NCBI RefSeq assembly: GCF_009914755.1
Contig: NC_060948.1
DNA from: the human T2T-CHM13v2.0 reference genome, Homo sapiens
Direction: 5' to 3' (one strand)
Length of the DNA stretch: 64,000 bases
Numbering within the stretch: the stretch's first letter is position 1; every line of letters starts with the position of its first letter. Under the pieces are notes generated by a model that was given only the letters and a program-made list of their open reading frames with translations, did not search any database and was not told the origin of the DNA. Shown here piece after piece: positions 16,980-47,000 of this stretch. The position numbers and the translations under genes were made by a program.

Positions 16980-17022
<43 letters not shown>

Positions 17023-18897: not shown

Positions 18898-19146
18898 AGA
18901 TATCTTGCCAGTAGTTTCCTTTGGCCAAATCTAGTTGGAATCCAGAGGGTAAAGAAACCCAAGCAGGCCAGCTTCATGGAAAACACTACAATATGGAACG
19001 AGATAGAGAATCAATCTATAGCAGATATCTAGCCAGTATTTTCCTTTGGCCAAATCTAGTTGGAAGCCAGAGGGTAAAGAAGCCCAAGCAAGCCAGATTT
19101 ATGGAAAATAGTACAACATGGAAACAGATAGAGAATCAATCTGTAG
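18898..19146. repeat. Diverged tandem duplication, 125-bp period, two copies
   Basis: 'agatatct.gccagta.tttcctttggccaaatctagttggaa.ccagagggtaaagaa.cccaagca...gatagagaatcaatct.tagc' at 18898 and 19023. Confidence 0.9.
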
Positions 19147-22100: not shown

Positions 22101-25100
22101 CTAGAGTAAATCCTGGAGCAGATTGTGAAGTCAGTCCCAAATGTCATTTGGGCACAAGTGTTTTTTGCTTCTATTGCTGAAATGCACATAACTTATGCCA
22201 TGGGACATATTCAAAGAGGCAGAAAGCTACAATTAGAAGGTGGCAATAACACACATTGCCATCAATGAATTTAGAGAAAAAATAATTGAACTTGTCATTA
22301 AAGTCAAAGCTGGATGCATTTTGGAAGGGTAATCAATTTCTGAAGGGCCCCAGTGCAAACTATTCACATCGTTGGAGGTTGTTCTCAGCTACATGCTACA
22401 ATTAGGCAAGTAGGTTGTACTTTAATACAAATGGGTAGTTCTTGTTCTGTGATATAAACCCATTTTCGAGACTTCTATGCCTATATCAATTGTATATGCC
22501 AATACCTCCTCAGATGTGTATCTGTACATTATTTTTCTTAATGATATTGAACACTTTCATATGTGAGGCAAAACCATAAAGCATTTTATTGTCAGATAAG
22601 GGAGTAAGACAACTTGTATAGGTTTGAATTAAAAGATAAGTTTACTTAGTAGCATTGGTTCAGAGGCAAGAATTATCACATTCAATTTGTGGAAGATAAT
22701 GAGAAAGATTGATGGCATACGAGGTGGGCCTTGGAGAATGGGGTGGGTGGAGACAGATGAGAGAGATGAGGGGAGAGGGAAGGAGGGAGGGAGAGAGAGA
22801 GAGGGAGAGAGAAAAGCAAGAAAGGAGAGAGAAAGAATGAACAAAAGCATTCATTCCAGGCTTCCAGGCTCAGAGAATTGTATGAATAACGCTACAGGTG
22901 AATGAGAGTACAAAATAGATCAGGCTAACCCAGAGACTTATCCTTAGCAGACATTATTTGAAAGGACAGTTCACCCTCTAAGTTTCCTTAAGAAGTTTTC
23001 ACTGGAAAGCTCCTGTCTTCCGCTTTCATAGTTTGGTGGTAAACAGAGAGGTGTAGTTGAACATCACCTGTAGACCAAATAGGGTATTAACAGAAAACTA
23101 GAACTCTGACAATGATGCTATAATTATGCGGAAGGAGGGTCAGTAGTGTTAAGGAAAAGGGAGTAAAGGATTTAGAAACCGAAGGGTAAATTTTCAGCCT
23201 CTTCCTTGCTACAAATTAAGCATATCACCTTGGGTTTTTACTCAATGTCTTTTGCACCTTGCTTTCTTTCTTTATAAAAATAGGATGAAAACGCCTCTTC
23301 TTTCTAGGTCTGTGGATTGCTGTGAGGATCAAATAAGATAAATGCAAATTTTGGTGTTATTATTAGAAGTAATAATGGTAAAATGGAGTATTTCATATCA
23401 TTTAAAGATTTTTTATATATGCTAAGATATTTTTTCATACTTTTTCAAAATATCAATTCTGTAGTGCCATAAATAATTGTATTAAATGAATCGCTGGTAC
23501 AAAGATCACATTCTGGTTCATAAGTCCTGTCTGGATGACTTAGAAATATTTAACTGTTAATATGAATATGGAAATCCAGCAGACTGAATCATTAAGGAGG
23601 AAAAAGGACCCGTTTTATGCATCAGACAGATTTCAGTAGCTTATATTGTCTACCTACAGGAGCTGGACACAATGATTCTTGCATATTTTGGATTCAAATG
23701 CATTTTTATTATTATTTTACCCCTGAAGCTAGGTTTGGAAAGACAACATTTGTTACTTAAGACAACTTAGAAAAAAAAAAAACTATTTCTATGTTATCAC
23801 ATTGAAAGGGTTGTTATGAGACCATCACATTATTTTATTTGCCAAATATGAATATGTTTCCTCAGTAATGTACTTTTGATTGTTATTGTTTTTAGAGAAA
23901 GAAGATACTGTTCTCAATAAAATAAAGAACATGCTCAAATAACGAACTAATAAAGGGATAAAAATAGTCAATTAACATTGAGACGCTTGTTCACTGTCAC
24001 TAGTAATCAAATAAATACAATGCAAATAAATCATTGAGTTATTATTTCAAACTATCGAATTTGCAAACATTTAAAAGAAAAAGAGCTGGCAAATTCATAA
24101 CCTCCTTTAAAAAGGGAATACTTAAATGAATTATAGTAGAGTGATTCAAGTACATTATAAAGAATAGATGGCAGTGAGGAAATAATCATAATAAATACAT
24201 AAAAATCTGATGTATAATTGGTGATCTGCAAGAAAATGTGGGGAAAAGGTAGTAGCATTTACTTCTGAATGGTTGTACAATTTTTAGAGTTTTAAAAACT
24301 CCATTTCTGAATTTTCTGCAATAATTATTACTGTTATTATCAGTAAAAATGAGAAAACAAAAATATGTGTGTGTGCACTCATACATGAATGCACACCTAC
24401 TTCTAGAGTTGTTTGGTTCTTAGTTACAGTAAAACTATAATCTACCACAAAATGACAGCAGCATGCTTTACTGAGCTGCAGTTGTGCATATGGCCTGTTT
24501 ATTCTTTTTTTTTTTTTTTTTTGGTCAACCTGTACTTCTTGTTTGGCTTTCTGTATTATAGATATTTGATATTATAAATATAAATATTATAGATGTTTGC
24601 AAGTTACATGTTTCTAATTGCCCAGCTACAAATATCAGTGGTGGTATATGCACTATCTACTACACTCATTCGGGACATAAATTTATATAACAGAAAGGCT
24701 ACTGTTTTTGTAATTTAAATACACAGGGCTATTTTATTCTATGGGAGCAAGCAGAATTTAATTTAAACTGGCGTTTTTTCTGTAGACCTGGGAGTAGAAT
24801 TTTTTTTTTTTCTTGAGATGGAGTCTTGCTCTTAATTTTACCCAGGGATGCACTATTTTATTATTTTATAGTGAATAATATCTGACAAGCATGCATTATA
24901 TTGCTACCTGCTGAGTCATGAATACATGAATACTACCAAGTAAATAGCTCAAATTTATAAATTTTAAAGCAATTTTTATTTTTGAATTGATCTTGTGTTT
25001 TTGATAGAATATACCTAAAAGGCTTAAAGTGCATGTAACTGAGCAATTTTCTTTTATGTAATGATGCAAAGTATATGAATAGTAAGTAATCTGACTCAGC

Positions 25101-26226
25101 AAAGAGACAAGAGTTCATACCCAAGAGATTCGTGCTTTGAGGTTTGGAAATAGCTCTTGTTATGTATTTTTGATCTTGGGTGGGCTATTAGCTATAAGTC
25201 TTGGTGTCTTCATCCATAAAATGGTATTAATAGCACCTGCCTTTTCTGCTTTTCAGGTGTAGAGACTTGAAAAGTAAATAATAATACGTGGAAGTTCTCT
25301 ACCGCCTTCTGTGCCCAGCTTGACCACATATTCAGGTTTTTGATAATTAGCACAATTAAAGTGAACCAAGGGGGAACAAGTTGCTGATTTAATTTGGGGT
25401 TACATTGCCTTCACCCTGTGTCATAGGCTTACTTAGTCCAAGCATTCCTTAAGTATGCGTGTCTATTTAAGAGATTAGCTGAGGGTGGCTGATATTCAAT
25501 CTCAATTTATCTCAGCTTTGGGAAAACCATCCCTGCGTGTACCCTATCTGTGCTTGTGAGTCCACAGTGGGATTTTGTATAAAGAACAGCATGTTTATAT
25601 TTACAAGATTGAAACTGTAGGTGAAGTTCATAAACATCTGAAATAATTCTTTTTTCCTGAAATATTTCCTGCTCTTCTGGCATTCTTCTTTGTAATATTC
25701 AGTTTCACATATACTTTCCTAGTTACATTGCAAACTCCATGGGGTCAAAGTGTGTGCTAGTTTTGCATACTACTGAGTCTGTTGTGTCCATTACAGTGCT
25801 TGACACATAGCAGATGCTCAATAATTAAAACAGCAATTATACACACACACATATATAAATATATATATATTTATATAAAATATATAAAAACAATGGACTG
25901 ACAGACTCATTAAGTCCCACCACCCACCTCCTATTTCCTAGCATAGTGTCAGGTACTTATTAGGTGAACAACAGATAGTGACTGTATCTTATTTATATTA
26001 TTTAGGATGGGCCTCTAGGAGTTCAGTAACTTATTGTTTTAGAGTAAATCAAAATATTAATCCTTACATGACACTTAAATGCATGAATACAGTATTGTGC
26101 TTAAGTAGGATACTGTCCTCAATAATTTAAAAATACATGCACCCATTTTTTTTCCATGCATTGAAAATGACTAGTCCAGAGATGAATATGAAGGCAGTGA
26201 TAAAAGTCTGGGAGCAATATCGTCTA

Positions 26227-26286
26227 ACTTAGGGCTTGAGGCTCATTTGGATTCCCACTTAGGGCTTGAGGCTCATTTGGATTCCC
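26227..26286. repeat. Perfect 30-bp tandem duplication
   Basis: 'acttagggcttgaggctcatttggattccc' twice. Confidence 0.95.
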
Positions 26287-27149
26287 TAATTATGCTGATC
26301 TAGATCTTCAGGCTTGTAGTTCTCCCTGAGGGTCTTGGTTATTTTTCCTAATAGACTCACCAGTCTCGTTAATCAAACAAGTCCTCAACACTAAATATAA
26401 ATCTCATCATAAAATCAAAGTTGCATTTATCCTAGTAAAAGTCTAAAGCTACTTCTACTAATTAGTAAGTTTGGGGAATAATTTGCCTAGACACCAGCAA
26501 TGTGCTGGGCCTACATTTGGGCTACAGTGTATTTACTTACCATAATTAGTGATTTTTTAAAAAAGGTAATTTTACCACTTGGAGTAAAAGAACATCAAAA
26601 ATAAATGCTATAATTCAGTGAAGTTTGTAAAAAAAAAAGGGTCTATGTCTATATATCCATCCATACATATGTATGGTATTCATGACACCTTCTAAATTAG
26701 TGCAGCAATACATTATATTTTATCTCTGATTTAACTGTTCTTATAAAACAGCAAGATTATAAAAATTCCCACTTAACCAACATTAAAAGCAGCATTAAAA
26801 TCTACAGTACTTAAAGAACATATTATCAATAACTTCCATGATATGTGCTTACAAATTTTTTCCAAATATTAGATGATTGATACTTCATTTTCTAATAGCT
26901 TTCAGACCTGACAATCTGGATGGTAAACTGTAATTCAATATCTCCAAACTTACATTTGGCCAGATTATCATCTTGTGTATGTGTGTGTATGAAGGGGTGT
27001 GTGTATGAAGGGGTGTGTGTGTGTGTGTTTGTAGCAGAGAGAAAGATAGAGAAATAAAAAATAAATAAATAAAACAAACCTGGTAAAAGAAAAATTATGC
27101 TTTGGAAGATACGGCTTATTTCCCTCTTGGTATAGTCTCTTCATAATAT

Positions 27150-27960
27150 TATTTTTTTTAATTTTTTTTTGTGGGGACATAGTAAGTGTGTATATTTATG
27201 GGGTACATGCGATGTTTTGATGCAGGCATACAATCTGGAATAAGCCAATCATGAAGAATGGGGTATCCATTCCTTCAACACCCATCACTTGAACTACAAA
27301 CAATACAATTACACTCTGTAATTATTTTAAAATGTATAATTAAGTTATTATTGATTACAGTCATCTTGGTGTGCTATCAAATTGTAGGTCACAATCATTG
27401 TTTCTATGTTTTTTTAAAACCATTAACTATCCCCATCTCCCTACCAGGCCCCCATTACCCTTCCCAGCTTCTGGTAACCATCCTTCTACTTTTTATGTCC
27501 ATGAGTTCAATTATTTTTATTTCTTGTCCCACAAATAAGTGAGAACGTGCAATGTTTGTCTTTCTGTGCCTGGCTTATTTCACTTAACATAATGATCTCC
27601 GTTCCACCATGCTGTTGGAAATCACTGGATCTCATTCTTTTTGTACGGCTGAATAATACTCCATTGTGTATGTGTACCACATTTTCTTTTGTTTTTATTT
27701 TATTATACTTTAAGTTTTAGGGTACATGTGCACATTGTGCACATTAGTTACATATGTATACATGTGCCATGCTGGTGCGCTGCACCCACTAACTCGTCAT
27801 CTAGCATTAGGTATATCTCCCAATGCTATCCCTCCCCCATTTTCTTTATCGCTTTATCTGCTGATGGACATTTAGGTTGCTTCCAAATCTTTTATTTTTT
27901 CCAAAAATCTGAAATTTGAGCTACCATATGATCCAGCAATCTCACTGCTGGCTATATACC
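27150..27960 (-). mobile_element. Old L1 (L1MA-like) 3' fragment
   Basis: 'tatatttatggggtacatg', 'gtctttctgtgcctggcttatttcacttaacataatg', 'ctgatggacatttaggttgcttccaaatc'. Confidence 0.8.
27690..27837 (-). mobile_element. Short 5'-truncated young L1 (L1PA2-like) nested in the older L1
   Basis: 'ttattatactttaagttttagggtacatgtgcac...gctggtgcgctgcacccactaactcgtcatctagcattagg', flanked by the direct repeat 'cattttcttt' (27680-27689 and 27838-27847). Confidence 0.88.
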
Positions 27961-28697
27961 AATATCAGAGTAAGCCACAAAAGTCATGTCCTCTACATCA
28001 TTAATATAATTTAGAGGTGGACAATAAAAAAGAAAATTAATGGAGAAATAAAAGCAGAAATTTATAAAACATGTATAAACAAATGAGTCCATATTACTCA
28101 ACTTTATATGGGTAAAAATGGAAGTAAAGTCACAATATCAGGCATTGAAATTATTCTGTATTCTGTTACTTGGTGTAAGGTGATTTGCCACAATCCAAGA
28201 GTCTATGAAGTAAGTTTGTATGAGATAGGATGGAAGGAAAGGAGAATTTGAACTATCTCAGGGATATTTTTTAATGATTGAAAGCTATGCTATAAAATCT
28301 CTTAGGAAAAACATGCTATCAATTGCCTGATGGAGTAATGCATATCTCATATCCTTCTCATCTCTATTCCTTCAGATCACAGTAGCTTTGGCAGCAATAT
28401 CGAGATGTTGTCAGTTAAGCTTCTAGATCCCTCCATCTGCCACCATCAACATAGTCACATGACTAGAAATAATAATTTATGTATCTAGAATCAGCCACAA
28501 GTAGACTGCTGAGTACTTACTACATAAAGGCAAAGCTAGCATTTTTGGGTTGGGGGGGCAGGTGTAGAAACACGTTAACAGTTCTGTAAATACACATAAA
28601 GATATGCATTTTCCTTAATCACAAATAAATAAACCAGAAGAATTTTCAGTGATTTAAAAAAATTAAGAAATAGGGAACTTATTTAAAAAGCCTTTGA

Positions 28698-28965
28698 AGC
28701 CACAGTGGCTCTTGCCTGTTATCTCAGTATTTTGGGAAACTGAGACAGGGCCTCACTTGAGGCCAGGAATTCCAGAGGAGGCTGGCAAATAGAGTGAGAT
28801 GCTGTCTCTAGAAAAAATAAATAAAATTTAAAAATTAGCTGCTTGTTTTGCAGTGTGCCTACAGCCCTAGCTACTTGGGAGGCTGAGGTGAAAGAATTGT
28901 TTGAACCAGGGAGTTTGATGTTGCTGTAACTTATGATCTTGTCACTTCACCCCAGCCTGTCCAGA
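28698..28965 (+). mobile_element. Alu (AluJ-like), lacking its 3' end and A-tail
   Basis: Dimeric Alu that stops at 'cccagcctgtccagag' and runs directly into the PWTQ-repeat region. Confidence 0.85.
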
Positions 28966-31900
28966 GGATTATCTAATCATACTGTGGACTATTGCCAAAT
29001 CTGCAGCAGTGAAACTCTGGACACATTCTGTGTCTGGTAAAGTCACACTTTGGAACCAAGAAGAATTTCCAGCCTTACTTCCCTTGACAGAGCCTATCGC
29101 TAAGACAGTCACAACATAGATCCAGGATAGAATTCCAACAATAAATCCCTGAGCAAAAACTATAGCTGAAACTGCCATACCATGGATCCTCGATGAAATG
29201 CCACCAACAAATCCCTGGAAAAAATACAGCCTGAATATTTAGCAGTAAATACCTGGCACTATCTGAATTTAACCCAGTCTCATTGTGGATCTTGGCTTAT
29301 TTGTCAGTAGGAAACTACTCTACACAGTTCCATACTGAAACAATAACACTGTGAACCCACGTTGAGTCTCCAGCAATACTTTCCTGGAAACAGTTGGGAA
29401 CTGATATAATCACATTAGGGACCCATGCTGAATCACTAGTGATGAATTCATGGATATATTCTTCTATATGTGATACGGTCACAACACCTATCCAGGCTGA
29501 ATCAGTTATTAAATCACTGGACATACTCTGAAACTGATATACTCACAACATGGATTCTGGCTGAAACTCTAGGATTAAGTCCCTGGGCACGTGATATGTT
29601 CCTACCATGGACCCAGGCTGAAAGTCCAGCAGTATCTTGGATTCAACCATGGATTCTGGGTAGAATGCCAGCAATGAATCCCTGGAGAGAGGCTACAGCT
29701 GACATTGTCCTACCCTGGAACCAGGCTGAATTTATGTAGAAGGAAATGCCTGGACACCGTCTGAAACTTATACAATCACAAAGAGGATCCTGAGTGATTC
29801 TCCAGCACTAAATTCATGGACATGGGCAATAGCTGATGCAGACCAGCTGTGGACCAAACCTGAATTTCCAGCAGTAAATCCCTGGACAAAGTCTGTAGTT
29901 GATAGTACTATACCATGGATACAGGATGAGTCTCCAGCAATAAATCCATGGACACAGTACGTATCTTATATGATCAAACCATGAGCCCAAAATGACTCTT
30001 CAGCAGTAAATCTCTGTACACTACCTGAATCTGATACCATTATCCTGTGGACACAAGCTGAGTCTCCAACAGTAAATCCGTTCACAGAGGCTGGAACTTC
30101 CACAGTCACACCATGGGCCCAGGCTGTATCTCCAGCAGTAATTCCACGGACACAGCCTATACTTTCCACAGTCGTACCTTGGACCCAGGTTGAATGTCCA
30201 TCAGTAAATACCTGGAGAACGTCCATAGCTGATGCCATCACACTGTGGATAGGGGCTGAATTAACCGCAGGATATCAATGGATACTGCCTTGGGCTGCTA
30301 CTGTCACACTGTGGTCACAGTCTGAATCTCCAGCAGGAAATCTTTGGACACAGTCTGTGTATGACACAGACACACCATGGCCTCAGGCTGAATCTCCAGC
30401 AGTAGTTTGCTGGACAGAACATGTAGCTGATACACACCGTGGACTCAGTTTGAATTTTTAACAGTAAAGCCTTGGATCCAATCTGTATCTGATACGCTCA
30501 TACCATGGACCCAGGCTGAGTCTTCAGCACTAAAGCATTTGACACAGGCAATAGCTTATACAATCAAGCTGTGGAACCAAGTCAAATCACCTGCCATAAA
30601 TCTCTGGAAACAATATGAAACGAATATGTTCACATGGTGTACTGAGGTTGAATCTCCAAAAGTAAAGGAGGGGACACATCCTATACCTGCTACAGTTATA
30701 CCACTGAACCAAGCTGAATCTGTAGGAGTAAATCCCTCCACAAAGCTTGAAACAGAAATACTCATACTGTGGACCCAGGCTCATTCTAAAATCAACAATC
30801 TCTGTACATATACTCTACTTGATAGAGTGAAACCATTGGCTAAGGATGTTTGTGTAGCAGTAAACCCATGGAGACAGTCTAAAACTGAAATAGTCACATC
30901 ATGGGCCCAGGATCTGTTGCCAGCAATAAATCCCTTAACAGTGGCTGTACCTGGTATAGTCACACTGCAGTACATGGCTGTATCTCTAGTAATAATTCCC
31001 AGGAGAGAGGCTCTAGCTGATACAGTCATAATATGGACACAGACAAAATCACCAGCAATCAGTTTCTGGTTGTAACCTCTGCCTGGCACAGTCAAACTAT
31101 GGACCCAAGCAAAATATACACCCGTTATCACTTGGAACCAGGCTGAATTTCCAGCTAGAAATCCCATGATACAATCTTAGCCTCCAATTGTAAAGATCTG
31201 AACAGAGTCTGAATCTCTAGCCCCAAGTCCTCTGTTATAGGTGGAGACTGATACAGTCATACCATGGACCCAGACTGAATCTTTGGCAGTAAATCCCTGG
31301 ACAAAGCCTGTTGCTGATACACTCACACTGTGTACACAGCCTGTAACTCCATCATTAATCGTTTTTTCACAAACTTTTCATGATACACTGAAAGCATGGG
31401 CTCAAACTGAATGCTTACCAGTAAATACCTGGACAGAGGCTGTAGCTTCCAAAATTATACCCTGGACCCAGGCTGAATTTCCAGCAGTAAATCCTTAGAC
31501 AGAGCCTTTTGCTCATACGGTAACAATTTTGGCACAGGCTGTATCTTCAACAGTAAAGATCTGGCCACAGCCTTCATTTAATACAACCAACTTATGTATT
31601 TAATACAACCAATCTGAATCTGCAGCATTAATTACATGGATACAGCCTGCATCTGATACATACATAGGATTGATCCAATCTGAATCTTCACCAGTGAATT
31701 CCTGGAGACTGCCTATATCTAATATATTATCATTGTGGACCAAGCCTGTATCTCTAGCAGTCAATCTGTGAATAGAGGCAATAGCTTCCATAGTCATACC
31801 TTGGACCAAAGCTTTACTTTTAGAAACAAAACCCTGGACACATCCTGTATCTGATATACTTATGCTGTGGACCCAGGTTGAATCTTCTGCAGCGATTACC

Positions 31901-32295
31901 TCCACACAGGCAGTATCTGACACAATTATACTGTGGCTGCATGCTGCAGGCCTCCAGTAGGAATTACCTGGATACAGACTGATCTGATCTTCTTATATCT
32001 TCTTATATCATGAAACAATGATGAATCTCAACAGAAAATTCAGGGGCATGGGCTGTAGTTTCCACCGTGTTACCATGCAACCAGTTATCCCTTCAGCAGG
32101 AAAAACCTGGACATCTACCTGTGTCAGAATCAATCACCCCGCAGACCCAGTCTGAGTCTCCAGTAATGAACACATGGACAGAGGCTGCAGCTTCCACACT
32201 CTCAAAGTGGACTCATGATGATTTTCCAGATGCAAATGCTTATACACAGAGCGAAATGGGCACATACTGGACAATGGGTAAAACTGAAGCTAAGA

Positions 32296-32671
<376 letters not shown>

Positions 32672-33974
32672 TCAACCTGATACTCATGACCTGTGATTCA
32701 TGAAGAAAATCAAGCATCTATTTTATGGACACATCATGAAATTGAAAATATCAATGAATGGACGTTGTCTGAATTTGGAACACTTATATCTTGGACAGTG
32801 CTTGTACCACAAGCAGCAGAACCATGGCCCCAGCCTGAAGCTCTGCTTAGCACACCTTTGTTTAAAACTGGATCAGAAGAAAATGAAACCTTGGGCTCAA
32901 CCAGAATTTCAAACACTGAGCACATTTACTCCATTTGGACCTGGTAAACTAGAATCCTGGGCCAAACATAATACTACTACATTGAAAACAAGGATCTAAT
33001 CCGAAACTGATGTCTTCTACCCGTGCACCCAATCTGAAGTAGGTACAATGAGATCCCAGACCATTTCTGAAGAAGATACAGTAAAACTATGGAACTGGAC
33101 TGAAGCAGGCACAATCCACCCCTGGACTCAACCTAAAACTAATACAATCAGACTTTTGACTCATGTGAATTTCAAGCAGTCAGACCCTGGACCCTGTCCT
33201 TGTCTGATACACTGTTGTATCAGGCTGAAATGCAAGCTGCAAAATGCTTGACCATGCCTGACATTAATACTGTGAGTTCTTGGTTTCAGACTCAAAACAA
33301 TGTAAGAATAAATGTTACTCAACCTCATTCTCGAGCAGGTACTACCTGGATGCAGCCAGAATGGCAAATAATCCACCCATGGAACCAATCTGAAAAGAAT
33401 GCAGTCAGACCCTGGACCCAGTCTGAAGGTGATGTTCTGCAACCTTGGATCTATGCTGAAAGCAATACAGTCAGACTCTGGGCCCATTCTGAAACTGATA
33501 AAATAAAACAATATACTGAGCCTGAATCTCAAGCAATTAGGATGTGGCCTGAAGAGGATATGTTCGCACTTTGGTCCCCAACACAAAACGATGCAGTTTG
33601 GCCATGGACCCAAGTGGAATCACAAATGACCCACTCCTGGACCCAGAATCAACTTAGTATAAATTACCCTTGGACTCAGCATGTACCTGCTGCAATCAGA
33701 CCATGGACTTACTCTGAAATTCAACCCTGCACCCACCCTGAAGCCAATACAGTGATAAGATACTGGTTCCAGACTCAAATGAGTTCATTAAATCCTGGGA
33801 CCAACCTGAAACTGAAGTATTCCAAATTTGGACTGTAAGCCAAGTAATAAAACCCCAAAACTTCATTGAAATTGATACAGTCACATCTTGCTTACAGACT
33901 CAGTGTGATACAATTAGACCCTAGGTTCATCCTGAAAGTCAGCCACTCTCTCCTTGGCCCCACACTGAAGCTGG

Positions 33975-34438
33975 TGTCAGGCCTCTGAGCCCAAGCTAAG
34001 CCATCATATCCCTTGTGACCTGCACGTGTACATCCAGATGGCCTGTAGCAACTGAAGATCTACAAAAGAAGTGAAAATAGCCTTAACTGATGACATTCCA
34101 CCATTGTGAGTTGTTTCTGCCCCACTCTAACTGATCAATGTAATTTGTAATCTCCCCCACCCTTAAGAAGGTTCTTTATAATCTCCCTCACCCTTAAGAA
34201 GGTTCTTTGTTATTCTCCCCACCCTTGAGAATGTACTTTGTGAGATCCACCCCCTGTCCCCAAAACATTGCTCTTAACTCCACTGCCTATCCCAAAACAT
34301 ATAAGAACCAATGATAATCCCACCACCCTTTGCTGACTCTCTTTTTGGACTCAGCCTGCCTGCCACCAGCTGAAATAAACAGCCATGTTGCTCACACAAA
34401 GCCTGTTTGGGGGTCTCTTCACACGGACACGTGAGACA
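33975..34438 (+). mobile_element. Solo LTR7 (HERV-H) inserted in the giant exon
   Basis: Starts 'tgtcaggcctctgagcccaagctaagccatc', has the internal 'cccttaagaaggttcttt' repeats and AATAAA, and ends 'cacacggacacgtgagaca'. Flanks gctgg/gtttg look like a decayed 5-bp TSD. Confidence 0.93.
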
Positions 34439-36341
34439 GTTTGTATATTTCAGCCCTGGACTCAGCAAAGAGTTACTACAAATCGTTCGTGGACCCACCC
34501 TGAAACCCAAGCAGAGAGACTCTGGATCAAGCAGGAAACTGAAGATAGAGACAGATCTTCGTTTTACATTCAAATGAATAAAGGCAGACCATGGGTTTAT
34601 TTGAAATATCAAATAGTCGGCGCCTGGATCCAGCCTGAACTTGATGTAATTCACTCTTTTATCCAGTCTGAAACCTTCCTATTAAGATTCTGGCCCAAGG
34701 TTCTATCTCCAGTAGTCAAACCATGGATCTTGCTTAAAGGAAGAACACTCATATCTTGGATACTGCCTGTAACCCGAGCAGACACTGGATCCAGTCTGAA
34801 GTTCATCTTATTGAATCCTTCGGTGTTTTTAAAGCCGGCAAAGTGAGAACCTGGATCCAGCCTGAAACAGAAATACTAAGACCCAGAACCCTATAAAGCT
34901 GTTATAATTGATCATTTTCTCCTCCTGAAATTGAGCCGAACAGAGAAACACTATTAACGAGTCATTTTGGCTGCTTGTCCAAACGTGTACCCTTTTTGCC
35001 AGTAAAAACTGTTTATTCCCCAGATCGGTATTTTATAGCTTTGTCAACTGAGATAACTGCCACACAAAGCCAATATAAAATCAATTCTATCCAACCAAGC
35101 CAGTTTACAAGCATTTGGCTTCCTGGAAGAGTTGTTTACCAGCTCTATGGCAGGAAATTAAAAATTATCAAGACAAAAGAAAGCCCTCATGTCCCAAGTA
35201 CCTCTCTTATCTCTCTTTATGCTTTTTCTTTATTCATTCTTGTTCTCTTCCATCTGTATGTACACTGACCCCTTCTTGTTCAGTCTTTTCTTCTTGTACT
35301 TTCCTTTCATTCTGTATTTTCCCATCTTGCTCAGGTATTTCTCCTCTGGTCTCCTCTCCTATTCTGCTATCCATAGGCTCTTTTGCTAATCCTCCTCAGA
35401 ATATATTTCCCTCAGCATTTACTAAAGAGTCAATTCTTTCTCATTCTTTTTCATCCTTGCATACTGCTCCAGCCGCATTTTTAACAAAACAACCTCTCCT
35501 GATGCCTGGATCTCAGTCTGGACCCAAGCCTGAACAACAACCTCTTAGGTATTCAGAACTCAGTGTTTCCCTGGGTGAGTGTCAACTAGCTGTGATTTGG
35601 AAAGAAAGTTTCCAGGCTTTCTGGCTCTTCAGGACAGCTGTTATTTCCCATGAAACCACAGGCAGCTTTAGTCGAGTCAGATATTTGAGTTAATGTACTT
35701 GGTATGAAGACTCCTGTTGAACCCTAAAACCAGAGTTTGTAGCAACAGAGGTTATGTTCTCAGACCGTTGCAAAACCAAAATTTAGGTTATTGTGTGAAT
35801 CAGCAGAGATGTGTAAATATTGAGAGAATATTTTTTTTTTTTTTTTGCCAAACAGGATGTTTGAGCTATGTGTTATGAACACAATTCTATTCAGACAGCA
35901 GTATTTTAAAGATAGCCTTACTCCTTAGAAAGGTTTTATTATTTTCACTTGAGGTATATACATATATACACACACTATTGGATAATAGTATAACATCTTG
36001 GATACTAGTATCAGATATAAATAATAATATACTACATATATAAACTATATATACATATATTTATATATAGCATCTATATAGTATATATGTGTATATATAT
36101 AGTATATATGTAATAGTGTGTGTGTATATATATATACGCTTTATTGTTAGAAGGGGAAGTATGAAGATAACCTCTGTACTATATCTAAAATTGTGGGATG
36201 AATAATGTATATTTCTATGTATTTTCTCAGAATTGAAGATAATGAATTTCCAAGCATTTTTCTAAAAGTCTAAATTTAGATGTTAGAAAAGGAAGGGTAG
36301 TAACACTAATCACTCTATACCATGTGTGGGTTCCTCTGCAG

Positions 36342-36662
36342 AGTGTGGATTATGCCCTGGCATTATCCCTGTCTGTCCCAACTGCTGGGAGGCAGAAATT
36401 GGTGAATTCTGTTGGGTGATTTCTGCACAAATGTTTTTCTCCCATTTTTGTGCTGGCTCCATACTACATGAACAGTGGATCATTAGCACAGCTAGATGTG
36501 TCAATTTTATGTAAGTCTGAGCAATTCATTTCAAGATTATGATATCATTATAAAGCAAGTAAAACATTGAGACTGTTACTGAATATGTTTCTTTTCTATT
36601 TATTTATTTATTTTTGTTTGTGTGTGTGAGACAGAGATAGGGAAAGAGAGAGAGATAGAGAC

Positions 36663-36709
<47 letters not shown>

Positions 36710-38041
36710 GAGAGAGAGAGACTCTCCCTCTATTGTCCAGGCTAAAATGCAGTGGTGTGACTCACATTAGCCTCAAACTCCCAATATTAAGGGATGCTCC
36801 CACCTCAGCCATCTGAGTACCTGGGACCGCAGGCACACGCTACTGCATCTGGATAATTTTGTTGTTGTTGTTCTTGCTGTTGGTAAGGAAAAATTCTCAT
36901 CATGTTGACCAATTGGTCTCAAATGATCCTTGAAAATAGTTTCTAAAGTACTATTTGCAACTGAGTGCTTACCTGGACTTCATGTGATTCACGTGAACTC
37001 CAGGGTTTTTTCACACTGAAATGTGGAAATAATAAGATTTTTTCCTTGATTTTTTTTTCCCCCAAAAAAATGCAGAAGCCCTGGCTGTGGTCCGAGTGGG
37101 GCTTATTGACCTCCAGGATCCTGCCCAAGCTGAGATTGTAACCTTTGAGCATGCCATGCCCTATTTAGGTCCCAAGGGACCTCTAGGACCTGGGTTGATC
37201 TTCCTGAAGCAACCACTACATTTTCAACCCAGGTTCCTTCCTATACGCCTGGAGCAATGTCTGGAACAAGAGAAAATATACAACTATATGACTGTTGGCT
37301 ATGTAGTTGGTCCCTTATGAGGGGGTGACTAAAGAAGAAGACACTGGAATGAAAGAGAAGCATGTTTAGGAAGAGAATAGTATCCTCTCATGAATAATAA
37401 AAGATTTGTCTTTCCCTTCACCATACTTCTCCCTCTAATGTGGGCTAAAATTTGAAGACAAACACAAACACCTCTTCTCTGTTTTCTATCAGAAAGTCCT
37501 GGAATTGTGCAAAAACGGCACCTGAGCATCCTACAAGTCAGCACTTGTGCCCAATTTTGGCTCAAGCTGAATGAACTCACTTTCTGGGTGGAGGCCAAGA
37601 AAGCCATGTGGATGGCTGACTATCAGGTGACAAATTCATGGGGTATAAATATCAGGGAGAAAGAGGAATATCTTGAAAACCAAAAGTTACTTCTGGCCCT
37701 CCTTTAAAATATTGTTTGATATCTTGCCTCTTGTTTCTTGCAAGGTGACTTGGGAGCACCTTTCGTATGCCATCTACAGCAAGAGGACACTTGGGTGCAA
37801 GTGGGAATCTTGAGTCACTTTGAGGACCATTGCACAAAGCCCTAGGTCTTCAGCCAAGTGCACCCTTTCCTTTTCTGACTCCAGGGAGTGACACAGTCTA
37901 GCTATGCTCCCTGGTACAAGCAAGGGCCCATGACTACCTCTGCTTCTATGTCCCATTCAGTCTCTACCTCTACAAATGCTTCAGCTTTTACCTCCACCCC
38001 TGCTTCTCTTTGGCCACACTTCTCTCTGCCACAGCCTCAGA
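36342..38041 (+). pseudogene. Trypsin-like domain 1 (four exons) with in-frame stops
   Basis: CAGSILHEQWIISTARC; FLPIRL; GDLGAPFVC. In-frame TAG at 37843 and TGA at 37876; frameshift near 37275; acceptors near 37065 and 37743 read AA instead of AG. Confidence 0.85.
36600..36930 (-). mobile_element. Diverged Alu with (GA)n microsatellite (~36645-36720)
   Basis: 'gtccaggctaaaatgcagtggtg...ctcccacctcagcc' and a (GA)n run. Confidence 0.8.
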
Positions 38042-39495
38042 GTAAGGCTCAAAAACTTGGTAGAGGTAATAAAGGAAGAAGAGAATGGAATTAGAAAAGA
38101 AGAGAGGGAAGCAGAGAGGAAAGAAAGCTCTTCCTGTAAAATATATGAGTTTTTTATCTACCAAATCACAGAAATTATTTTTATCGTGGTTTACAAAGGT
38201 ATTTCACACTTGATCTATGATTCAATTTCCATTGTATCCCTGTATGATATAGATTACTGTATAATATAGGTCATGAAACATGATTACTATAGTTATGTTA
38301 ATTGCTTACTCTTATACTAGATAAGTAGAATGGATTGTTCAAGTTCTTATGGCAAAAGATGAATAGGACTAACATTAAGACACACTCTCCTAACACAAAG
38401 TCATTTCTACCACACAGTATCTTACATGTGTAATAGAATTATTTTGAATTGAATATATTTTAAGTTAAAGACATTATGATGTTTGGAAACAGCATAGCAG
38501 TTGGTAAGTAATGTGTTTTAGGTGCTGGTGTACTAGACTGTATTACATTGTGATTATCAGTTTCCTCCTTCCCTTGGCTATCAGAAAACCTATCACAATA
38601 TTAGCAATGGCTATTTCACATTACTGTACTTCCACTTATTTCCTTAGAAACTGAGGGATCTCTTTTGGTGTCATGTACTAAATGTGCACTTAACCACAGC
38701 TATATTATAGCTAACACCTATTGTCATAGCTACAGTGAATAACACATTAAAACACAAAGGAGGCCACAATTATTTGCTCACATTCTGCAAAGTCTGATTC
38801 AAAGACAACTACACTTAAGATCATAGTTATGCTTCTAATTTCATCTATATTTCCTCACCTCTTCTAGAGAGAGCCTATCTTCATCGTTTTTATATCTGTA
38901 ATATGTGCATTAACTGGCATTGCTTCAACTCAGTTTTCTGAGAAACTCTCAAATGTTTTTTAAAATATGAGCTATTTCCTTAACCCCAAACTTGAATGTT
39001 CTATTTAAACTGTCATTCTGATATCACACTAAGATTGTAAGTTCAGGAAGATAAGCTCCCTCCAATTTAGAGACAGGAGCCTTATCTCCAAATTTTTCCT
39101 TGTTTATCTAATATCTCCAAATCAAATAATTTTTTGTTGCCCATCTACTTTGATAACTTTTAAGTAGCTAAAATCATAGCTATGTAAAGGTTGCAATGGG
39201 GAGAAAGCTGGAATGACTCCCAGTACTTTGACTGAAGAAATTTAAGTTAGGACATAAAGAAACTGTGAACTTAGAAAAATAGTAAAAGGAAAACTTTTTT
39301 TTTTTTTTCAGAAAAATGTAAAAACAAAAACAAAGGAAAAACAGAAAAGAGGTAGAAGTTTGTGTTTGCTAGTCATATTTAACAATGCTGACCTGGTTAG
39401 CAGAAATAGGAGGGATCTAAATTTTTTTTTAAATGGTCTACATGTGGCAATTCTATTCAAATTAATTGTGTGAATTTTCCCCTTGGCTTTGGCAG

Positions 39496-42442
<2,947 letters not shown>

Positions 42443-43055
42443 CCTAGTGACTATAACTACTGATGCCACAGTCTGGTCACAGTATGATAAAACGCCAGAG
42501 CATCAACAAGGAAAATTTTGACTTAGCCTTCCAAAATCTATCTAAATATACCTTCAATAAATATGGCTTTTCTTCGTAATAACTGCTTTCTACTACTTCC
42601 TGAACTAATGCATGGCCTTGGATTGTTTTCATTCTTGAAAATGATTCAAAAGTTCATATTTAACATGAACGTGAATGCAGGATTTTATTTATCAGCAAAA
42701 AAAATTTTCAAAATGATGCGAAATACAAATGTGGAATTGTATTTGTGAATATTAGTCTTTCAAATTATATTTTTATCCCAACTAACTCACACAATGTTTT
42801 GTAACTATCTGCATATTCTCCTCAGGTGGGGGAAAAACAGTATCAGAGTTCTTGAAGAATTTATGAAAAAGAAAATGACAATACTATACAAGGTTTAACC
42901 TATTCACAATACTGTATTTAGTGAATGAAAACATTACTTTTAAAATCCTACTTAAGTATTGAGTAAATAAATAAAGCATATTATTTCAATAACTCTAAAA
43001 TACGTGTTCACGAAGACAATACAACAAGGGTTAAAATACATAAACAAACAAATGA

Positions 43056-43370
43056 GGCCGGGCATCATGGCTTGCACCTGTAAGCCCAGCATTTTAAGAG
43101 GCCAAGGCGGGCAGATCACTTGAGGTCAGGAGTTTGAGACCAGCATGGCAAATATGGTGAAACCTCATGTCAACTAAAAATACAAAAATCAGCTGGACAT
43201 GGTGGCATGCGCCTGTAATCACACCTCCTTGGGAAGGCTGAGGCAGCGGAATCGCTTGAAGCTGGGAGACTAAAGTTGAGGTGAGCTGAGATCATGACAC
43301 TTCCCTCCTGCCTGGGTTACAGAGCCAGACTCTGTCTCAACACACACACACACACATACACACACACACA
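43056..43370 (+). mobile_element. Alu (AluS-like) with (CA)n tail
   Basis: 'ggccgggcatcatggcttgcacctgtaa...gactctgtctcaacacacaca'. Confidence 0.9.
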
Positions 43371-44460
43371 AATCTAAAAAAATGGAAAAAAAAATCTGTA
43401 CTAGAAAAAGAGCTCACAGGCAAACTCACATATCTAACAGGAAAAAAATGTCCTTTAAACAAAGGTGGCACAAGAGGCAAATTTAAAAAAAACAAATGTA
43501 TCAGCTTGCATATAAAGTACAAATAATATACTGAAGAGAACCACAAGGGGAAAAAAATCAAAATTTATAAGTATGTACTCTAAAAGAAGCTGAAAGTCAC
43601 TTAAAAATTTTCTGGATTCTATGTCTCTATATTGCAAAAATGATCATAAAATTTGCAGGAGCAGAACAATCAAAATCTATCTTAAAACTCAGTAAGCACT
43701 TCAAGTCTCACATAAGAATTGTAACAGAAAATGGATGTGTCTGCAGTATTTCCACACAAATCTGAACAAACACTATTTCTTCATACTCTTTGTTTCACTA
43801 TTCTAAGAAAATAACCTCCATATTAATATTAGGTGATGCGACAAAGCAGGTCTTCATCATGATAAGCAACACTGGGTGTCCACACCAGTACCCAAGTGGG
43901 TCTTAATTCCCGGCCAGTTTCCCTCCCTGGGCACATACCAGAGGAGTCAGCCATTTTGCAGTCTCTTCACATTTCCTCCTCTGAGCCCAATGTGGTCCTC
44001 CAGATTCTCTGTGTAGTGGCCTCTTTTGTCTGGGTAGCAGGGAAGTGTGAGTGAAGACGGCAGAAAGGAGAAATCACGTCAGGGGAGCCTGGGTTCATCG
44101 TAACCGAAAATGATGGGCCTGGGAGAGCCATTCTGGGAGGACGCAGACCTAGACAGGCCTTGGGGGGACATCTGCATGGAGGGTGAGAGGGCCCTGGTTG
44201 AGCCCAAACTGAGCCCCAAGTGTTAGTCAGCCTCAGGGTGGGGAAGGGAGCCAACTAGAGATGTTGAGCAAGTTATCCCTTAAGACTTGCTTCTCACCCA
44301 CTGACCTTAGACACTTATGCCTCTCAGGTGACTTAAGGTGCCCTAATCCTGAAATGTGAGTGTTACAGTTCCCTGAAGTCCGTTTCTCCTTCAGCCCATG
44401 GATGGCCTGGGATTGCTCACTGCAGTCTCTTCCCTGAAGCTTGGGTTCTCCTAACCTGAC

Positions 44461-46050
44461 CTCCTCTCTGTTCCCTCTCTAATGGCCTCCCTCCCTCGGG
44501 AAGTACTGAAGGGGATTGAGCCACAGGCCCTGGCTGATGATCTGGGGGACTGAAGAAGGGGGTACAGGACAGGTCAGGTCATGGCTCAAAGCCAGTTCCC
44601 CAGAGGCCAAGGAATGACCAGCAAGGTTTTTCCCATGATGCCCCACCGTGGCACCCATCTCAGCAATCCTGCCGGGACCTGGGTAGCCAGGGGCAACCAA
44701 CCAGCTGAAGAAGGTCAGATGTAGGTGTACTGCCTGCAGCTGGAGGCTTGACCTTCATGATCCCACAACCACTGGACTGCAGTGGAATGAGACACCCTGT
44801 TTCTTGGAGGGATAGGAATCAGGAAGGTTCATGCCAGACATACCCTCCCACACACAACCTCCCCTACCTTGCTGGGAGGCACTCCTTACCAAGGATGCCA
44901 ACGCAGTACTCCTGAATGATCACTTCATTGTGGAAGTAAAGGCTGTTACAAAAGGAAACCTTCATCCTGATGCCAGTACCTGGGGTGGCTGAGTTCCTCC
45001 ATCTACCTGGTCAAGAAGGAGAAACAGGATGGACTCAAAGGACCATTTCATGTAGCTGGACTGAAGTGGCCTGCTAGCTGGAGTGAAGCATGTGTTTCCC
45101 CTTCTCAGCTGTCCTGCTTAGACACCCCTGGGCCCCAGGGGGACCGCAACCTCACCCAGGCACTGGACCACTCCCACAGATTCAGGCTCAGCAGCCTAAC
45201 CTGCAAATCCATCATGTAGCTCAGCAGGACTTCATCATTTGTGACCCTGGTCCATATCTGGGCCCAAGTCTTGAGCACCATGTGTTTCTGGGGTAAGCCT
45301 GCTGGACACAGGCACAGGGAATAGGGGTAGTTCCATGGCTGGCATGGGCATAGAGACTCCCCTTCCTCCAGGGACTTTCCCAGGGAAATGTGCCCTTCGA
45401 CTTTCTGCAGTGCATAAAGGGTCCTTTGCGCTCCTATTCTCTCTTGTGAGTGCTGTGCTTTGCTTCCTGTCCCTACTCTACGTGCTCTCAGGGCAACTGC
45501 AAGCAAGCTGCCCTCCTATCTGCAGAAGTCTGGCCTCTGCTCCCTTCATTGTTCCTCATCCCCTGACTCCTGGATGACCTCCAGTGCCTACCAGCTGGCT
45601 CCCCGCAACCCTGCTCCTGGGACCTAGGCGCCCACCCCCTGCTGCCAGCCATCCCGAATTAGCAGCTGCGAAGACATGGCTCTGGCCCGGAAACCGGGGA
45701 TGCCCTGTGGCTTGAGGCATTTACAAAGCCCAGCTGCAAATGATGGACCTCCAGCGAGTCCGTTGCGGGCCGGGGCATACTGGGGCCAGGGCCCGGCTCT
45801 GCCCAGTGGTCCTCCTGCTGCTGCTCCACGTCGGCCTCTTCCTTGGCCACCACTTCCACTTCTGTCGTGATGTCATTTACCAGGAGCACGCCTCTTCCCC
45901 CCAGGCCGCCCTCTCCCGCAGAGCCTCCAGACTTAACACGGTGCCCTCCTAGGGCTCCCACAGACCAAGGTCTGAGCCGCCCACCCCACGCCCCTGGCAC
46001 CCCTAGACTCTGGGGGCCGCTCCTCGAGAGGCCCGGGGGCCTCGCCTAGC
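44461..46050 (-). pseudogene. TSPY: Unprocessed TSPY pseudogene (exons ~46050-45678, ~45245-45201, 45006-44890, ~44802-44659, 44541-44461)
   Basis: VLLVNDITTEVEVVAKEE...AEPGPGP matches TSPY exon 1. NDEVLLSYMMDLQ, YFHNEVIIQEY, FFSW...RIAE and IISQGLWLNPLQY match the NAP/SET-domain exons. Frameshifts, an internal deletion and lost GT donors are present. Confidence 0.9.
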
Positions 46051-47000
46051 TGAGAATCACGGTCTCACACCTACGTGGACCCAGGATTCCTGGGGAGTCC
46101 CGCAGGGCCCACAGTCCGCCGCAGTCACCATGAGGTCCAGATTCCCTGCATGGTTAGCTGCATACAGGAGCCATAGGCAGAGGCCCTGGACTTCCAGAGC
46201 CCCGCTAGCAGGCACCGCGGCCGGTGGGTGCTGCACTCACAGCAGCCTCTGCGCCACCAAGGCAGTGAACACAGGTCATTGGATGGGCGACCACGGCAGC
46301 TTGTCTCTGGTGTGCCCAGGGCATAGGACAAGAGATCCTTTGGAATACCCCTGGGAGTGCAACATCCTAGGGAGGATGCATGGAACTTGGAGTCTGTATT
46401 TCCCTAGATCTGAAAGAGTCCTTGCGGGGTTTTGAATTCCGGTGCTGACGAATTCCACCCCAGGAAGGTGCCAGATGACTTTCCTCCCAGATGCCCCCTC
46501 GGCCCCACTCCCCGAAAACCACCGCCGCTGCCCTTGCCCCAGCAGGCAGGACTAGACCCTCTCTCTTGCCTCTGGATCTCCAATATTCAGTACCATCAGC
46601 CTAGCCTGCCTAATGAAGTGAGATGTTTCATGTGTTCCCTGTGAGTCAATGGCTTGCGGCACTCAGGATGCCAGTTAGGGTATAGGTCTTCCATGTCACA
46701 ATTCCAAAGGGCTCACAGTCTGCGTGTGCCTGAACCCACCACCACCTTGCACAAGCATCTTCTCAGAGGAGGACTACCGCGGGAGGATGGAGCTGCAGGC
46801 CACCCAGGGGAGGGGCTCCTCAGGAGACGCCTACCGCTCTTGCAATAATTGGCAGATGCCCACTGCCTTCCCAATGATTGGCTGGAGGTAGGCGTGATTT
46901 CCGGGCATGGCTTCCCACTCAGGCCAGCTGCAGCGGTCTTTCCTGCAGTTGGCCCTGTGGTGTCCCGAAGCCGGATGCATACGACCTGAGTGACGGGAGA
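45600..47000. promoter_or_regulatory. GC/CpG-rich region between the divergent TSPY and RBMY copies, with opposed CCAAT boxes at 46871-46881
   Basis: Markedly GC-rich relative to the flanks; 'ccaatgattgg' lies just upstream of the probable RBMY non-coding first exon (~46925-47033). Confidence 0.55.

What the first reader, a model, noticed from the sequence alone, without database searches (positions are those of the whole stretch)
28965..42561. Hidden nine-exon relic gene: giant repeat exon joined to two trypsin-like domains (probable PRSSLY remnant)
Seen: scattered short ORFs assemble into one + strand gene with largely phase-compatible junctions (e.g. ...HETT G|AG TGT GGA = T-E-C-G; ...RN AT|G GAT = M-D), eight small protease exons, a stop at 42442 and AATAAA at 42556. 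Knowledge (recalled): PRSSLY is a testis-expressed, ancestral mammalian Y gene with a huge first exon and protease-like downstream exons, reported as lost or pseudogenised in apes. Inference: this is that gene's nearly complete fossil. The ORF track does not show it, and standard annotation may miss it.
Basis: partly seen in the sequence, partly recalled or inferred. Interest (0 to 1): 0.9.

Follow-up and report, generated by a model that had tools for sequence, protein, structure and literature searches.

The report
Dead PRSSLY gene copy on Y
This stretch of the human Y chromosome is a broken, front-truncated copy of PRSSLY, a testis gene still intact in many other mammals; its decay in primates was published in 2022, so the find is correct but not new.

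Summary
Window 28968-42442 (+) carries nine colinear exon relics: a 6.7-kb exon built of 33/66-nt repeats, then eight small exons (1650 nt) encoding two trypsin-like domains. The stop (42440-42442) sits where the orthologues stop, and AATAAA is at 42556.

Intact mammalian proteins match exons 2-9 at about 72% identity. Two of them equal the sheep and camel PRSSLY cDNAs of Hughes et al. 2022 (PMC9178871). So the PRSSLY call is right.

It is a pseudogene:
- No frame of exon 1 is open.
- Exons 3 and 8 have frameshifts and exon 5 has two stops.
- Three acceptor sites are destroyed.
- The copy lacks at least 2.2 kb of exon 1 and all upstream exons.

It is not new. [quoted passage not shown]

What I add:
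- The locus modelled there is a different copy (chrY 10.24 Mb, about 85% identical).
- The window copy is one of four 99.9%-identical copies.
- At least ten more diverged, intron-bearing copies exist.
- The last two exons also sit in each of 45 units of the 20.3-kb Yp tandem array.
- The copies have diverged neutrally.

RefSeq lists nothing at this place. Interest is low to moderate.

The parts
28968..35661 (+). Relic of the giant PRSSLY exon (6694 nt): 33/66-nt (11/22-residue, W-T-Q-x-E-S...P-W) repeats, then a non-repetitive tail ending ...AVISHETT. It is cut at its 5' end behind an Alu. Donor dinucleotide is GC.
   Evidence: tblastn to P0006/P0012/P0007. Periodicity. 96-129 stops in each frame, longest open stretch 231 codons, and the best-matching frame changes at least 10 times. 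5' homology edge.
32290..32619 (+). Alu insertion inside the giant exon, with a poly-A run at 32577-32608.
   Evidence: Hub mask list; Alu-like translations; A32 run. The A-run length is one of the few differences among the four near-identical copies.
36342..36510 (+). Exon 2: start of trypsin-like domain 1 (ECGLCPG...HFCAGSIL...STARC). Open, AG/GT intact. Arg sits at the catalytic His position, as in the intact orthologues.
37065..37324 (+). Exon 3. The acceptor is destroyed (CA; other copies have CAG or CTG). There is a 1-bp deletion in the A-run 37273-37276 and a 1-bp insertion in the G-run 37321-37325. Read in the upstream frame, a TGA falls at 37318-37320.
37493..37626 (+). Exon 4: open, AG/GT intact. 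Conserved ...GEAGCK is changed to ...WMADYQ.
37744..38041 (+). Exon 5: end of domain 1 (GDLGAP, with Leu at the catalytic Ser position) plus linker. The acceptor AG is changed to AA, with a new AG 1 nt downstream. In-frame TAG at 37843-37845 (shared with the 8.55-Mb copy) and TGA at 37876-37878 (private). One 3-bp deletion.
39487..39622 (+). Exon 6: start of domain 2 (...SGSIVGSSWILTAAHCVRN). Open. The acceptor is GG (other copies CAG); the donor GTAAGT is intact.
39987..40234 (+). Exon 7: open, AG/GT intact. The catalytic Asp position is changed (orthologues ARNDLALLLL, window ARNILELLLL).
41499..41630 (+). Exon 8: a 2-bp deletion at about 41526/41527 shifts the frame. AG/GT intact.
42170..42442 (+). 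Exon 9: open. It ends in TAG at the same place as the orthologues' stop codon.
42556..42561 (+). AATAAA, 114 nt after the stop. A possible polyadenylation signal; its use was not tested.

Best explanation
Window 28968-42561 (+) is an unprocessed (intron-bearing), duplicated, 5'-truncated pseudogene copy of PRSSLY. PRSSLY is the Y-linked 'protease, serine-like' gene that is intact and testis-specific in many eutherians.

The ancestral gene encoded upstream exons with a first trypsin-like segment, then a giant exon of 11/22-residue repeats, then eight exons for two more trypsin-like domains. The first of those two domains lacks the whole catalytic triad even in intact orthologues.

The window copy cannot make that protein:
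- its front is missing;
- the giant exon is closed in every frame;
- exons 3 and 8 are frameshifted;
- exon 5 has two stops;
- three acceptor sites are gone.

It sits in a large duplicated block, so it exists in four 99.9%-identical copies (chrY 22.78, 23.47, 25.30 and 26.92 Mb). At least ten older copies are 81-91% identical. All copies have drifted neutrally since they split.

Shown: the anatomy, the orthology, the lesions, the copy family and the neutral pattern of divergence.

Inferred: that the locus has no protein function, and that the gene was inactivated at about the time of, or before, the first duplication, in the ancestor of monkeys and apes.
For: - Orthology. 14 proteins at 65-74% identity to one exon. 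tblastn is colinear over nine exons. Sheep and camel hits equal the published PRSSLY cDNAs, by eye. The paper's human-model motif maps to a paralogous locus. 80 of 80 listed genome matches of dog PRSSLY are on chrY.
- Architecture. Two Trypsin stretches in 5 of 5 orthologues. Three in 8 of 10 more distant representatives.
- Lesions..
- Truncation. The copy at 22.32 Mb carries repeat-exon homology 1.65 kb further upstream, and at L020:5525-5644 the tail of the N-terminal trypsin-like domain (E 2e-7). The window has no such match. 0 of 87 upstream + strand ORFs of the window (14091-28789) hit Trypsin.
- Copy family.. The four copies differ at 23 of 13,659 aligned columns.
- Neutrality. Exon identity is about equal to intron identity in 15 pairs. 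Differences are spread evenly over codon positions 1, 2 and 3, with no third-position excess in any of the 15 pairs. Each of the 7 other copies examined has at least one frame break inside an exon.
- Literature. [quoted passage not shown] Marmoset, rhesus and the great apes are also pseudogenes (Additional file 3 of PMC9178871).
Against: - Five of the eight protease exons (2, 4, 6, 7, 9) are still open in the window copy.
- Exon identity to the other copies is 0-3 points higher than intron identity for the window lineage. A short spell of constraint after the split cannot be ruled out.
- No disabling lesion in exons 2-9 is shared by all copies. The original inactivating event is therefore not identified. 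The GC donor of intron 1 (5 of 6 copies) is only a candidate and could be an ancestral GC-AG intron.
- Low-level transcription is reported for the human model (PMC9178871), so an RNA-level role is not excluded.
- I had no genomic sequence of an intact orthologue. Intron positions were compared only with cDNA fragments seen by eye and with the human paralogues.
Confidence: 0.95

Rival explanations
1. A transcribed pseudogene with an RNA-level role (a long non-coding RNA or antisense regulator in testis), kept in four copies because the transcript matters.
For: PMC9178871 reports low-level transcription of the human pseudogene model: TPM 0.13-0.17 in testis and 0-0.23 in brain (Additional file 6). 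[quoted passage not shown] AATAAA is kept at 42556.
Against: The expression values are near zero and not testis-specific. They were measured on a model built from another copy. The window copy has lost its 5' part and whatever promoter lay there. Divergence among copies is neutral in exons and introns alike. The 99.9% identity of the four copies is what large Y amplicons show over their whole length, so it needs no selection on this locus (the downstream flank is also 100% identical).
Confidence: 0.08
2. A still-functional protein-coding gene that annotation missed, for example a short protein from exons 6-7 or exon 9, or a protein made by alternative splicing.
For: Exons 2, 4, 6, 7 and 9 are open. 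His of the second domain is kept (TAAHC).
Against: Reading is interrupted in exons 3, 5 and 8, and three acceptors are lost. Asp of the second domain is replaced. There is no excess of third-position change. The paper found no ORF in any human transcript.
Confidence: 0.01
3. A relic of a different PRSS family member (autosomal or X-linked, such as PRSS55 or a polyserase) copied to the Y.
For: Automatic names of the best protein hits are 'serine protease 52-like', '53-like' and 'brain-specific serine protease 4-like'.
Against: Those names are automatic. The same proteins carry the giant repeat region and equal the published PRSSLY cDNAs. Identity is 65-74%, against 24-35% for most of the next tier of trypsin-like representatives. 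All 80 listed human matches of dog PRSSLY are on chrY. Introns are kept, so it is not a retrocopy.
Confidence: 0.01

Closest known systems
Human PRSSLY pseudogene as modelled by Hughes et al. 2022 (BMC Biol 20:133, PMC9178871; 'Human (model)', 5398 nt, Additional file 9)
   Same: Same gene family and same build: repeat exon plus protease exons. Both are Y-linked and both are broken. The model's first 400 nt align, by eye, with window 28968 onward.
   Different: It is a different locus. The model's 28-nt motif occurs only at chrY 10,243,900 (-). That copy is 84-86% identical to the window and extends about 1 kb further 5'. [quoted passage not shown] I could see only the first 400 nt of each supplementary sequence and no figures.
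Intact PRSSLY of other eutherians (sheep P0007 1823 aa, Rousettus bat P0006 1109 aa, Rhinolophus bat P0012 1513 aa, dog P0010 609 aa)
   Same: Repeat region with W every 11 residues, the tail ...WKESLQAFWLFKTAVISHETT, then ECGLRPG... and two Trypsin stretches. The stop is in the same position. About 72% identity over exons 2-9.
   Different: Those proteins are open reading frames. The window copy is truncated, frameshifted and has stops. Long cDNAs of deer, ferret, fox and giraffe start with a signal-like peptide and a further trypsin-like segment that the window lacks.
PRSS55 (named by Hughes et al. as the closest autosomal paralogue)
   Same: Trypsin-like S1 fold and testis expression, per the abstract of PMC9178871.
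   Different: This was not compared here. No autosomal match appeared among the 80 listed. From recall, PRSS55 has one protease domain and no giant repeat exon.
Solved S1 proteases (coagulation factor XI 4na7_A, granzyme M 2zgc_A)
   Same: Chymotrypsin-fold sequence signature over both domains of the orthologues (E 1.7e-22 and 3e-13).
   Different: These are distant. In domain 1, His, Asp and Ser are replaced by Arg, Gly and Leu in the alignment to factor XI. In domain 2, His and Asp are kept and the Ser alignment is uncertain.

Membership tests
PRSSLY (orthology group) | Best protein matches are PRSSLY orthologues, not other PRSS genes | tested here: met
   14 hits at 65-74% identity. Sheep P0007 and camel P0011 equal the cDNAs BK059507 and BK059510 of PMC9178871, by eye. 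Most of the next tier of trypsin-like representatives is at 24-35% identity.
PRSSLY (orthology group) | Giant, poorly conserved exon followed by four to nine exons for the trypsin-like region (about 1750 bp) | tested here: met
   6694-nt repeat exon plus eight exons totalling 1650 nt. The paper's description is in section 5.
PRSSLY (orthology group) | Y linkage in eutherians, with no X or autosomal copy in human | tested here: met
   The window is on chrY (hub table). 80 of 80 listed matches of dog PRSSLY are on contig C24.
PRSSLY (orthology group) | Same intron positions as orthologues | tested here: inconclusive
   Junction phases agree with the protein alignments and with six human paralogues. 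By eye, the elephant and camel cDNA fragments begin at the first bases of my exons 2 and 3. No genomic sequence of an intact orthologue was available.
PRSSLY (orthology group) | Upstream exons with signal-like peptide and N-terminal trypsin-like segment (long cDNAs of deer, ferret, fox, giraffe) | tested here: not met
   tblastn with N-terminal parts of P0018, P0020 and P0028 gave no match in the window other than cross-hits to exons 2 and 6. 0 of 87 upstream ORFs hit Trypsin. The tail of that segment is present in the 22.32-Mb copy (L020:5525-5644). The absence reflects truncation of this copy, not a different family.
PRSSLY (orthology group) | Open reading frame and testis-specific expression | tested here: not met
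   ORF is broken. Expression is not testable here. The paper reports TPM of 0.23 or less for its human model. The locus is therefore a pseudogene member.
Catalytically active S1 (chymotrypsin-fold) serine protease | His-Asp-Ser triad | tested here: not met
   Domain 1 has Arg, Gly and Leu at the three positions in armadillo P0001 aligned to factor XI, and the window encodes the same STARC / GPLGPGLIFL / GDLGAP. In domain 2 the window keeps TAAHC but has Ile for Asp. The Ser position is uncertain.
Processed (retrotransposed) pseudogene | No introns, poly-A tail, single block | tested here: not met
   Eight introns are kept in the window and in 5 other full copies.

The most novel reading that the evidence does not exclude
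PRSSLY relics form a large family on the human Y that has not been described.

- There are at least 14 intron-bearing copies: four near-identical ones in the Yq amplicons, and about ten older ones at 5.9-10.2 and 22.3 Mb.
- The last two exons are embedded in every one of 45 units of the 20.3-kb Yp tandem array. That array fits the published TSPY/DYZ5 array.
- The 3' end of PRSSLY is joined to the same downstream segment in all lineages checked, so this linkage predates the amplifications. The dead gene was carried along when that block multiplied.
- Neutral divergence of 10-16% without any shared lesion in exons 2-9 would place the loss of constraint close to the first duplication, in the ancestor of monkeys and apes.

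The copy counts are observed. That none of this is in print rests on my searches only.
Probability: 0.55. Interest if true: 0.4.

Novelty: already known. Interest (0 to 1): 0.22.

Why it matters
The main point is settled in print. PRSSLY is the one ancestral sex-chromosome gene kept on the Y and lost from the X, and it decayed in monkeys and apes (PMC9178871).

Three practical points remain:
1. RefSeq on T2T-CHM13 has no entry for this locus, nor (by the hub table) for anything between OFD1P9Y and RBMY2BP. A pseudogene annotation is missing.
2. RNA-seq estimates for 'the' human PRSSLY pseudogene were made on one model, while at least 14 similar loci can attract reads.
3. The many copies, and the fragment in every unit of the Yp array, give dated neutral markers for the order of duplications on the primate Y.

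Tried and rejected
- Tandem Repeats Finder saw no array in exon 1, because the units are too diverged. Autocorrelation did see the repeat.
- A 13.6-kb DNA search of the genome scored only 4 of 26,773 candidates and left out the identical copies. I fetched and aligned them instead.
- I tried to name the sequence downstream of the relic (window about 43.2-46.7 kb, - strand) as a TSPY relic.
  - Pfam on 45 ORFs gave nothing.
  - A protein search with 45662-46045(-) gave nothing among 1197 candidates.
  - Pfam NAP against the whole genome listed no hit in the array or the window.
  - ORFs of a second array segment looked degenerate.
  - The TSPY label therefore rests on the array's unit size, span and copy number in print and on my recall of the TSPY N-terminus.
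- A search for full-length orthologues through the first 40 residues of the dog protein found nothing. The library of representatives supplied N-terminal domains instead.
- The idea that the neighbouring OFD1 and RBMY2 pseudogenes reflect ancestral synteny was dropped. The paper places PRSSLX/Y in stratum 2. The different strata of OFD1 and RBMX are my recall.
- Chance ORFs, a retrocopy and another PRSS gene were all rejected, as set out under the rival explanations.
Full report
**What is there.**
Stop-to-stop ORFs on the + strand between 28.9 and 35.7 kb show a recurring W-T-Q-x-E-S...P-W pattern. Downstream pieces look like trypsin. Pfam Trypsin is above its cut-off for 2 of 11 submitted pieces (36287-36514 and 39474-39626). 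The other 9 have no family above cut-off.

A protein search with the 98-residue piece 39967-40263 returned 14 mammalian proteins at 65-74% identity among 252 candidates. Those I fetched have a long N-terminal repeat region with W every 11 residues, then ...WKESLQAFWLFKTAVISHETT-ECGLRPG..., then two Trypsin stretches (5 of 5 tested). tblastn of the bat proteins P0006 and P0012 against the window is colinear from about 28.96 kb to 42.44 kb.

**Exon map.**

| Exon | Coordinates | Splice sites |
|---|---|---|
| 1 | 28968-35661 | donor GC |
| 2 | 36342-36510 | AG..GT |
| 3 | 37065-37324 | acceptor CA |
| 4 | 37493-37626 | AG..GT |
| 5 | 37744-38041 | acceptor AA |
| 6 | 39487-39622 | acceptor GG |
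| 7 | 39987-40234 | AG..GT |
| 8 | 41499-41630 | AG..GT |
| 9 | 42170-42442 | ends in TAG |

AATAAA lies at 42556. Exons 2-9 total 1650 nt. Over exons 2-9, 407 of 562 aligned residues equal the bat protein.

Exon 1 is truly periodic. Base identity is 0.498 at lag 66 nt and 0.410 at lag 33 nt in 29000-32280, and 0.403 at lag 33 nt in 32700-34180. The mean is about 0.256 (sd 0.03-0.04), and two control stretches never exceed 0.32. Tandem Repeats Finder missed this repeat.

**Identity.**
Hughes et al. 2022 (PMC9178871; I read the outline, sections 5 and 7, passages, and Additional files 3 and 9 as far as they are shown) describe PRSSLY as follows:
- It is a Y-linked gene with a giant, poorly conserved exon.
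- It has a trypsin-like region of about 1750 bp in four to nine exons.
- It is lost or pseudogenised in primates.

By eye, the visible start of their sheep cDNA (BK059507) translates into the first 76 residues of P0007. Their camel cDNA (BK059510) translates into the matching part of P0011. So the proteins that match the window are PRSSLY.

A 28-nt motif from their 'Human (model)' occurs once in this genome, at chrY 10,243,900 (-). That place is one of the paralogues found with window sequence. All 80 listed matches of dog PRSSLY in the genome lie on chrY.

**Why it is dead.**
- *Exon 1.* It has 96-129 stops in each frame. Its longest open stretch is 231 codons. The frame that best matches orthologues changes at least ten times. 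An Alu sits at 32290-32619.
- *Exon 3.* Compared with orthologue proteins and six human paralogues, its acceptor is lost. It has a 1-bp deletion (A-run 37273-37276) and a 1-bp insertion (G-run 37321-37325).
- *Exon 5.* It has lost its acceptor AG. It carries TAG at 37843-37845 and TGA at 37876-37878.
- *Exon 6.* Its acceptor is lost.
- *Exon 8.* It has a 2-bp deletion near 41526.
- *Exons 2, 4, 6, 7 and 9* are still open.

The copy is also cut at its 5' end. Homology starts at 28968, right behind a truncated Alu. The copy at 22.32 Mb carries repeat-exon homology 1.65 kb further upstream, and the published-model copy about 1 kb further.

The 22.32-Mb copy also keeps, at L020:5525-5644, the tail of an N-terminal trypsin-like domain (E 2e-7). 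That is 2.2 kb upstream of the point where the window copy begins. This domain belongs to the family:
- Long cDNAs of deer, ferret, fox and giraffe start with a signal-like peptide and such a segment (by eye).
- 8 of 10 more distant representatives have three Trypsin stretches.

The window has no trace of it. 'Nearly complete' is therefore too generous, and the giant exon is not the first exon in those species.

**What the protein was.**
In the alignment of armadillo P0001 to coagulation factor XI, domain 1 has Arg, Gly and Leu at the His, Asp and Ser positions. The window encodes the same. So this domain was a pseudo-protease before the gene died.

Domain 2 of the orthologues keeps His and Asp. 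The Ser alignment to granzyme M is of low confidence. In the window, Asp is replaced by Ile.

The function of intact PRSSLY is unknown. The paper reports fertile knock-out mice with a slightly female-biased sex ratio (abstract).

**The copy family.**
Three other copies (chrY 22.78 Mb on the - strand, 25.30 Mb and 26.92 Mb) differ from the window at only 23 of 13,659 aligned columns. Fourteen of those lie in runs of A, a dinucleotide repeat or a single-base gap. Their number and orientation fit the four 'blue' amplicons with the inversions reported for T2T-Y. The amplicon name is my recall.

Older copies that still carry introns:

| Position on chrY (Mb) | Notes |
|---|---|
| 22.32 | retains the tail of the N-terminal domain |
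| 8.55 | internally deleted |
| 7.35 | |
| 7.94 | exons 7-9 only |
| 9.95 and 6.18 | pair |
| 10.16 and 5.97 | pair |
| 10.24 and 5.92 | pair; 10.24 is the published model |

These are 81-91% identical to the window. Each of the 7 that I aligned has at least one frame break inside an exon. No disabling lesion in exons 2-9 is shared by all. The GC donor of intron 1 is shared by 5 of 6 copies.

Exon and intron identities are about equal in 15 pairs. Differences are spread evenly over the three codon positions in all 15 pairs. So the copies have drifted neutrally since they split. In the tree, the window lineage sits on a long branch apart from the others.

The marmoset locus is also a pseudogene (Additional file 3). 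This fits an early loss in the ancestor of monkeys and apes; that timing is my inference.

The paper's Methods say PRSSLY is single-copy in species with good assemblies. I found no statement on human copy number in the text I could see. No paper in the library links PRSSLY with the Yp array. The term PRSSLY occurs in 23 papers, and PRSSLY together with TSPY in 6; by title, the 5 of these that were listed are mouse or rat studies. 'PRSS' occurs 0 times in the T2T-Y preprint, and 'protease' 0 times in a TSPY review.

**Seen in passing.**
A 40-nt exon-9 motif (up to 3 mismatches) occurs 55 times, always on chrY, against 0 for the reversed control. Of these, 45 lie in a regular array from 8,958,802 to 9,851,322 with 20.3-kb spacing.

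One unit holds a homologue of window 41191-42846 (exons 8-9, 80% identity), followed by homologues of window 43241-46730. The same downstream segment follows the relic in the other lineages checked.

The unit size, span and copy number fit the TSPY/DYZ5 array described in print. I could not confirm a TSPY gene relic in the window with any tool.

**Verdict.**
The object is an ordinary, already published kind of thing: a PRSSLY pseudogene. It is unannotated at this place. A copy family and a link to the Yp array that I did not find described give it some residual interest.

Noticed in passing
G000 chrY 8,958,802-9,851,322 (loci L017-L019 hold one unit): Every one of 45 units of a 20.3-kb tandem array on Yp carries a homologue of PRSSLY exons 8-9 (80% identical to window 41191-42846). 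The array fits the published TSPY/DYZ5 array in unit size, span and copy number. I found no paper that mentions this.
   Followed up: partly
window 43241-46730 (mostly read on the - strand): The sequence just downstream of the relic is homologous (70-82%) to the part of the Yp array unit that follows the PRSSLY fragment. It follows the relic in at least five other copy lineages too. The translation of 45662-46045(-) resembles what I recall of the TSPY N-terminus, but Pfam, a protein search and a NAP genome scan gave no support.
   Followed up: partly
L020:5525-5644 (chrY 22,317,524-22,317,643, +): The 22.32-Mb PRSSLY relic keeps the tail of the N-terminal trypsin-like domain at the start of its giant exon (55% identity to P0018 residues 205-244, E 2e-7). 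It is therefore more complete at the 5' end than either the window copy or the visible start of the published model.
   Followed up: partly
window 17768-18418 (+): A retroviral relic. ORFs hit dUTPase (E 3.7e-20), a gag zinc finger (E 1e-7) and a retroviral aspartyl protease (E 2.4e-7). It lies between the OFD1 pseudogene and the PRSSLY relic. I observed it only.
   Followed up: no
window 36630-36730 (+), intron 2 of the relic: A long GA/AG dinucleotide run, seen as RERERE / SLSLSL in the ORF translations. One GA unit differs among the four near-identical copies (columns 36669-36670).
   Followed up: no
window 34144-34241 (+): A 31-nt tandem repeat of 3.2 copies (85% matches) inside the giant exon, next to a masked repeat at 34187-34433.
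   Followed up: no
chrY 23,027,139-23,027,378 (+) and 23,230,202-23,230,441 (-): Two isolated, inverted fragments matching only PRSSLY exon 3 (dog residues 151-230, 66% identity, one TGA each). They lie between the 22.78-Mb and 23.47-Mb copies.
   Followed up: no
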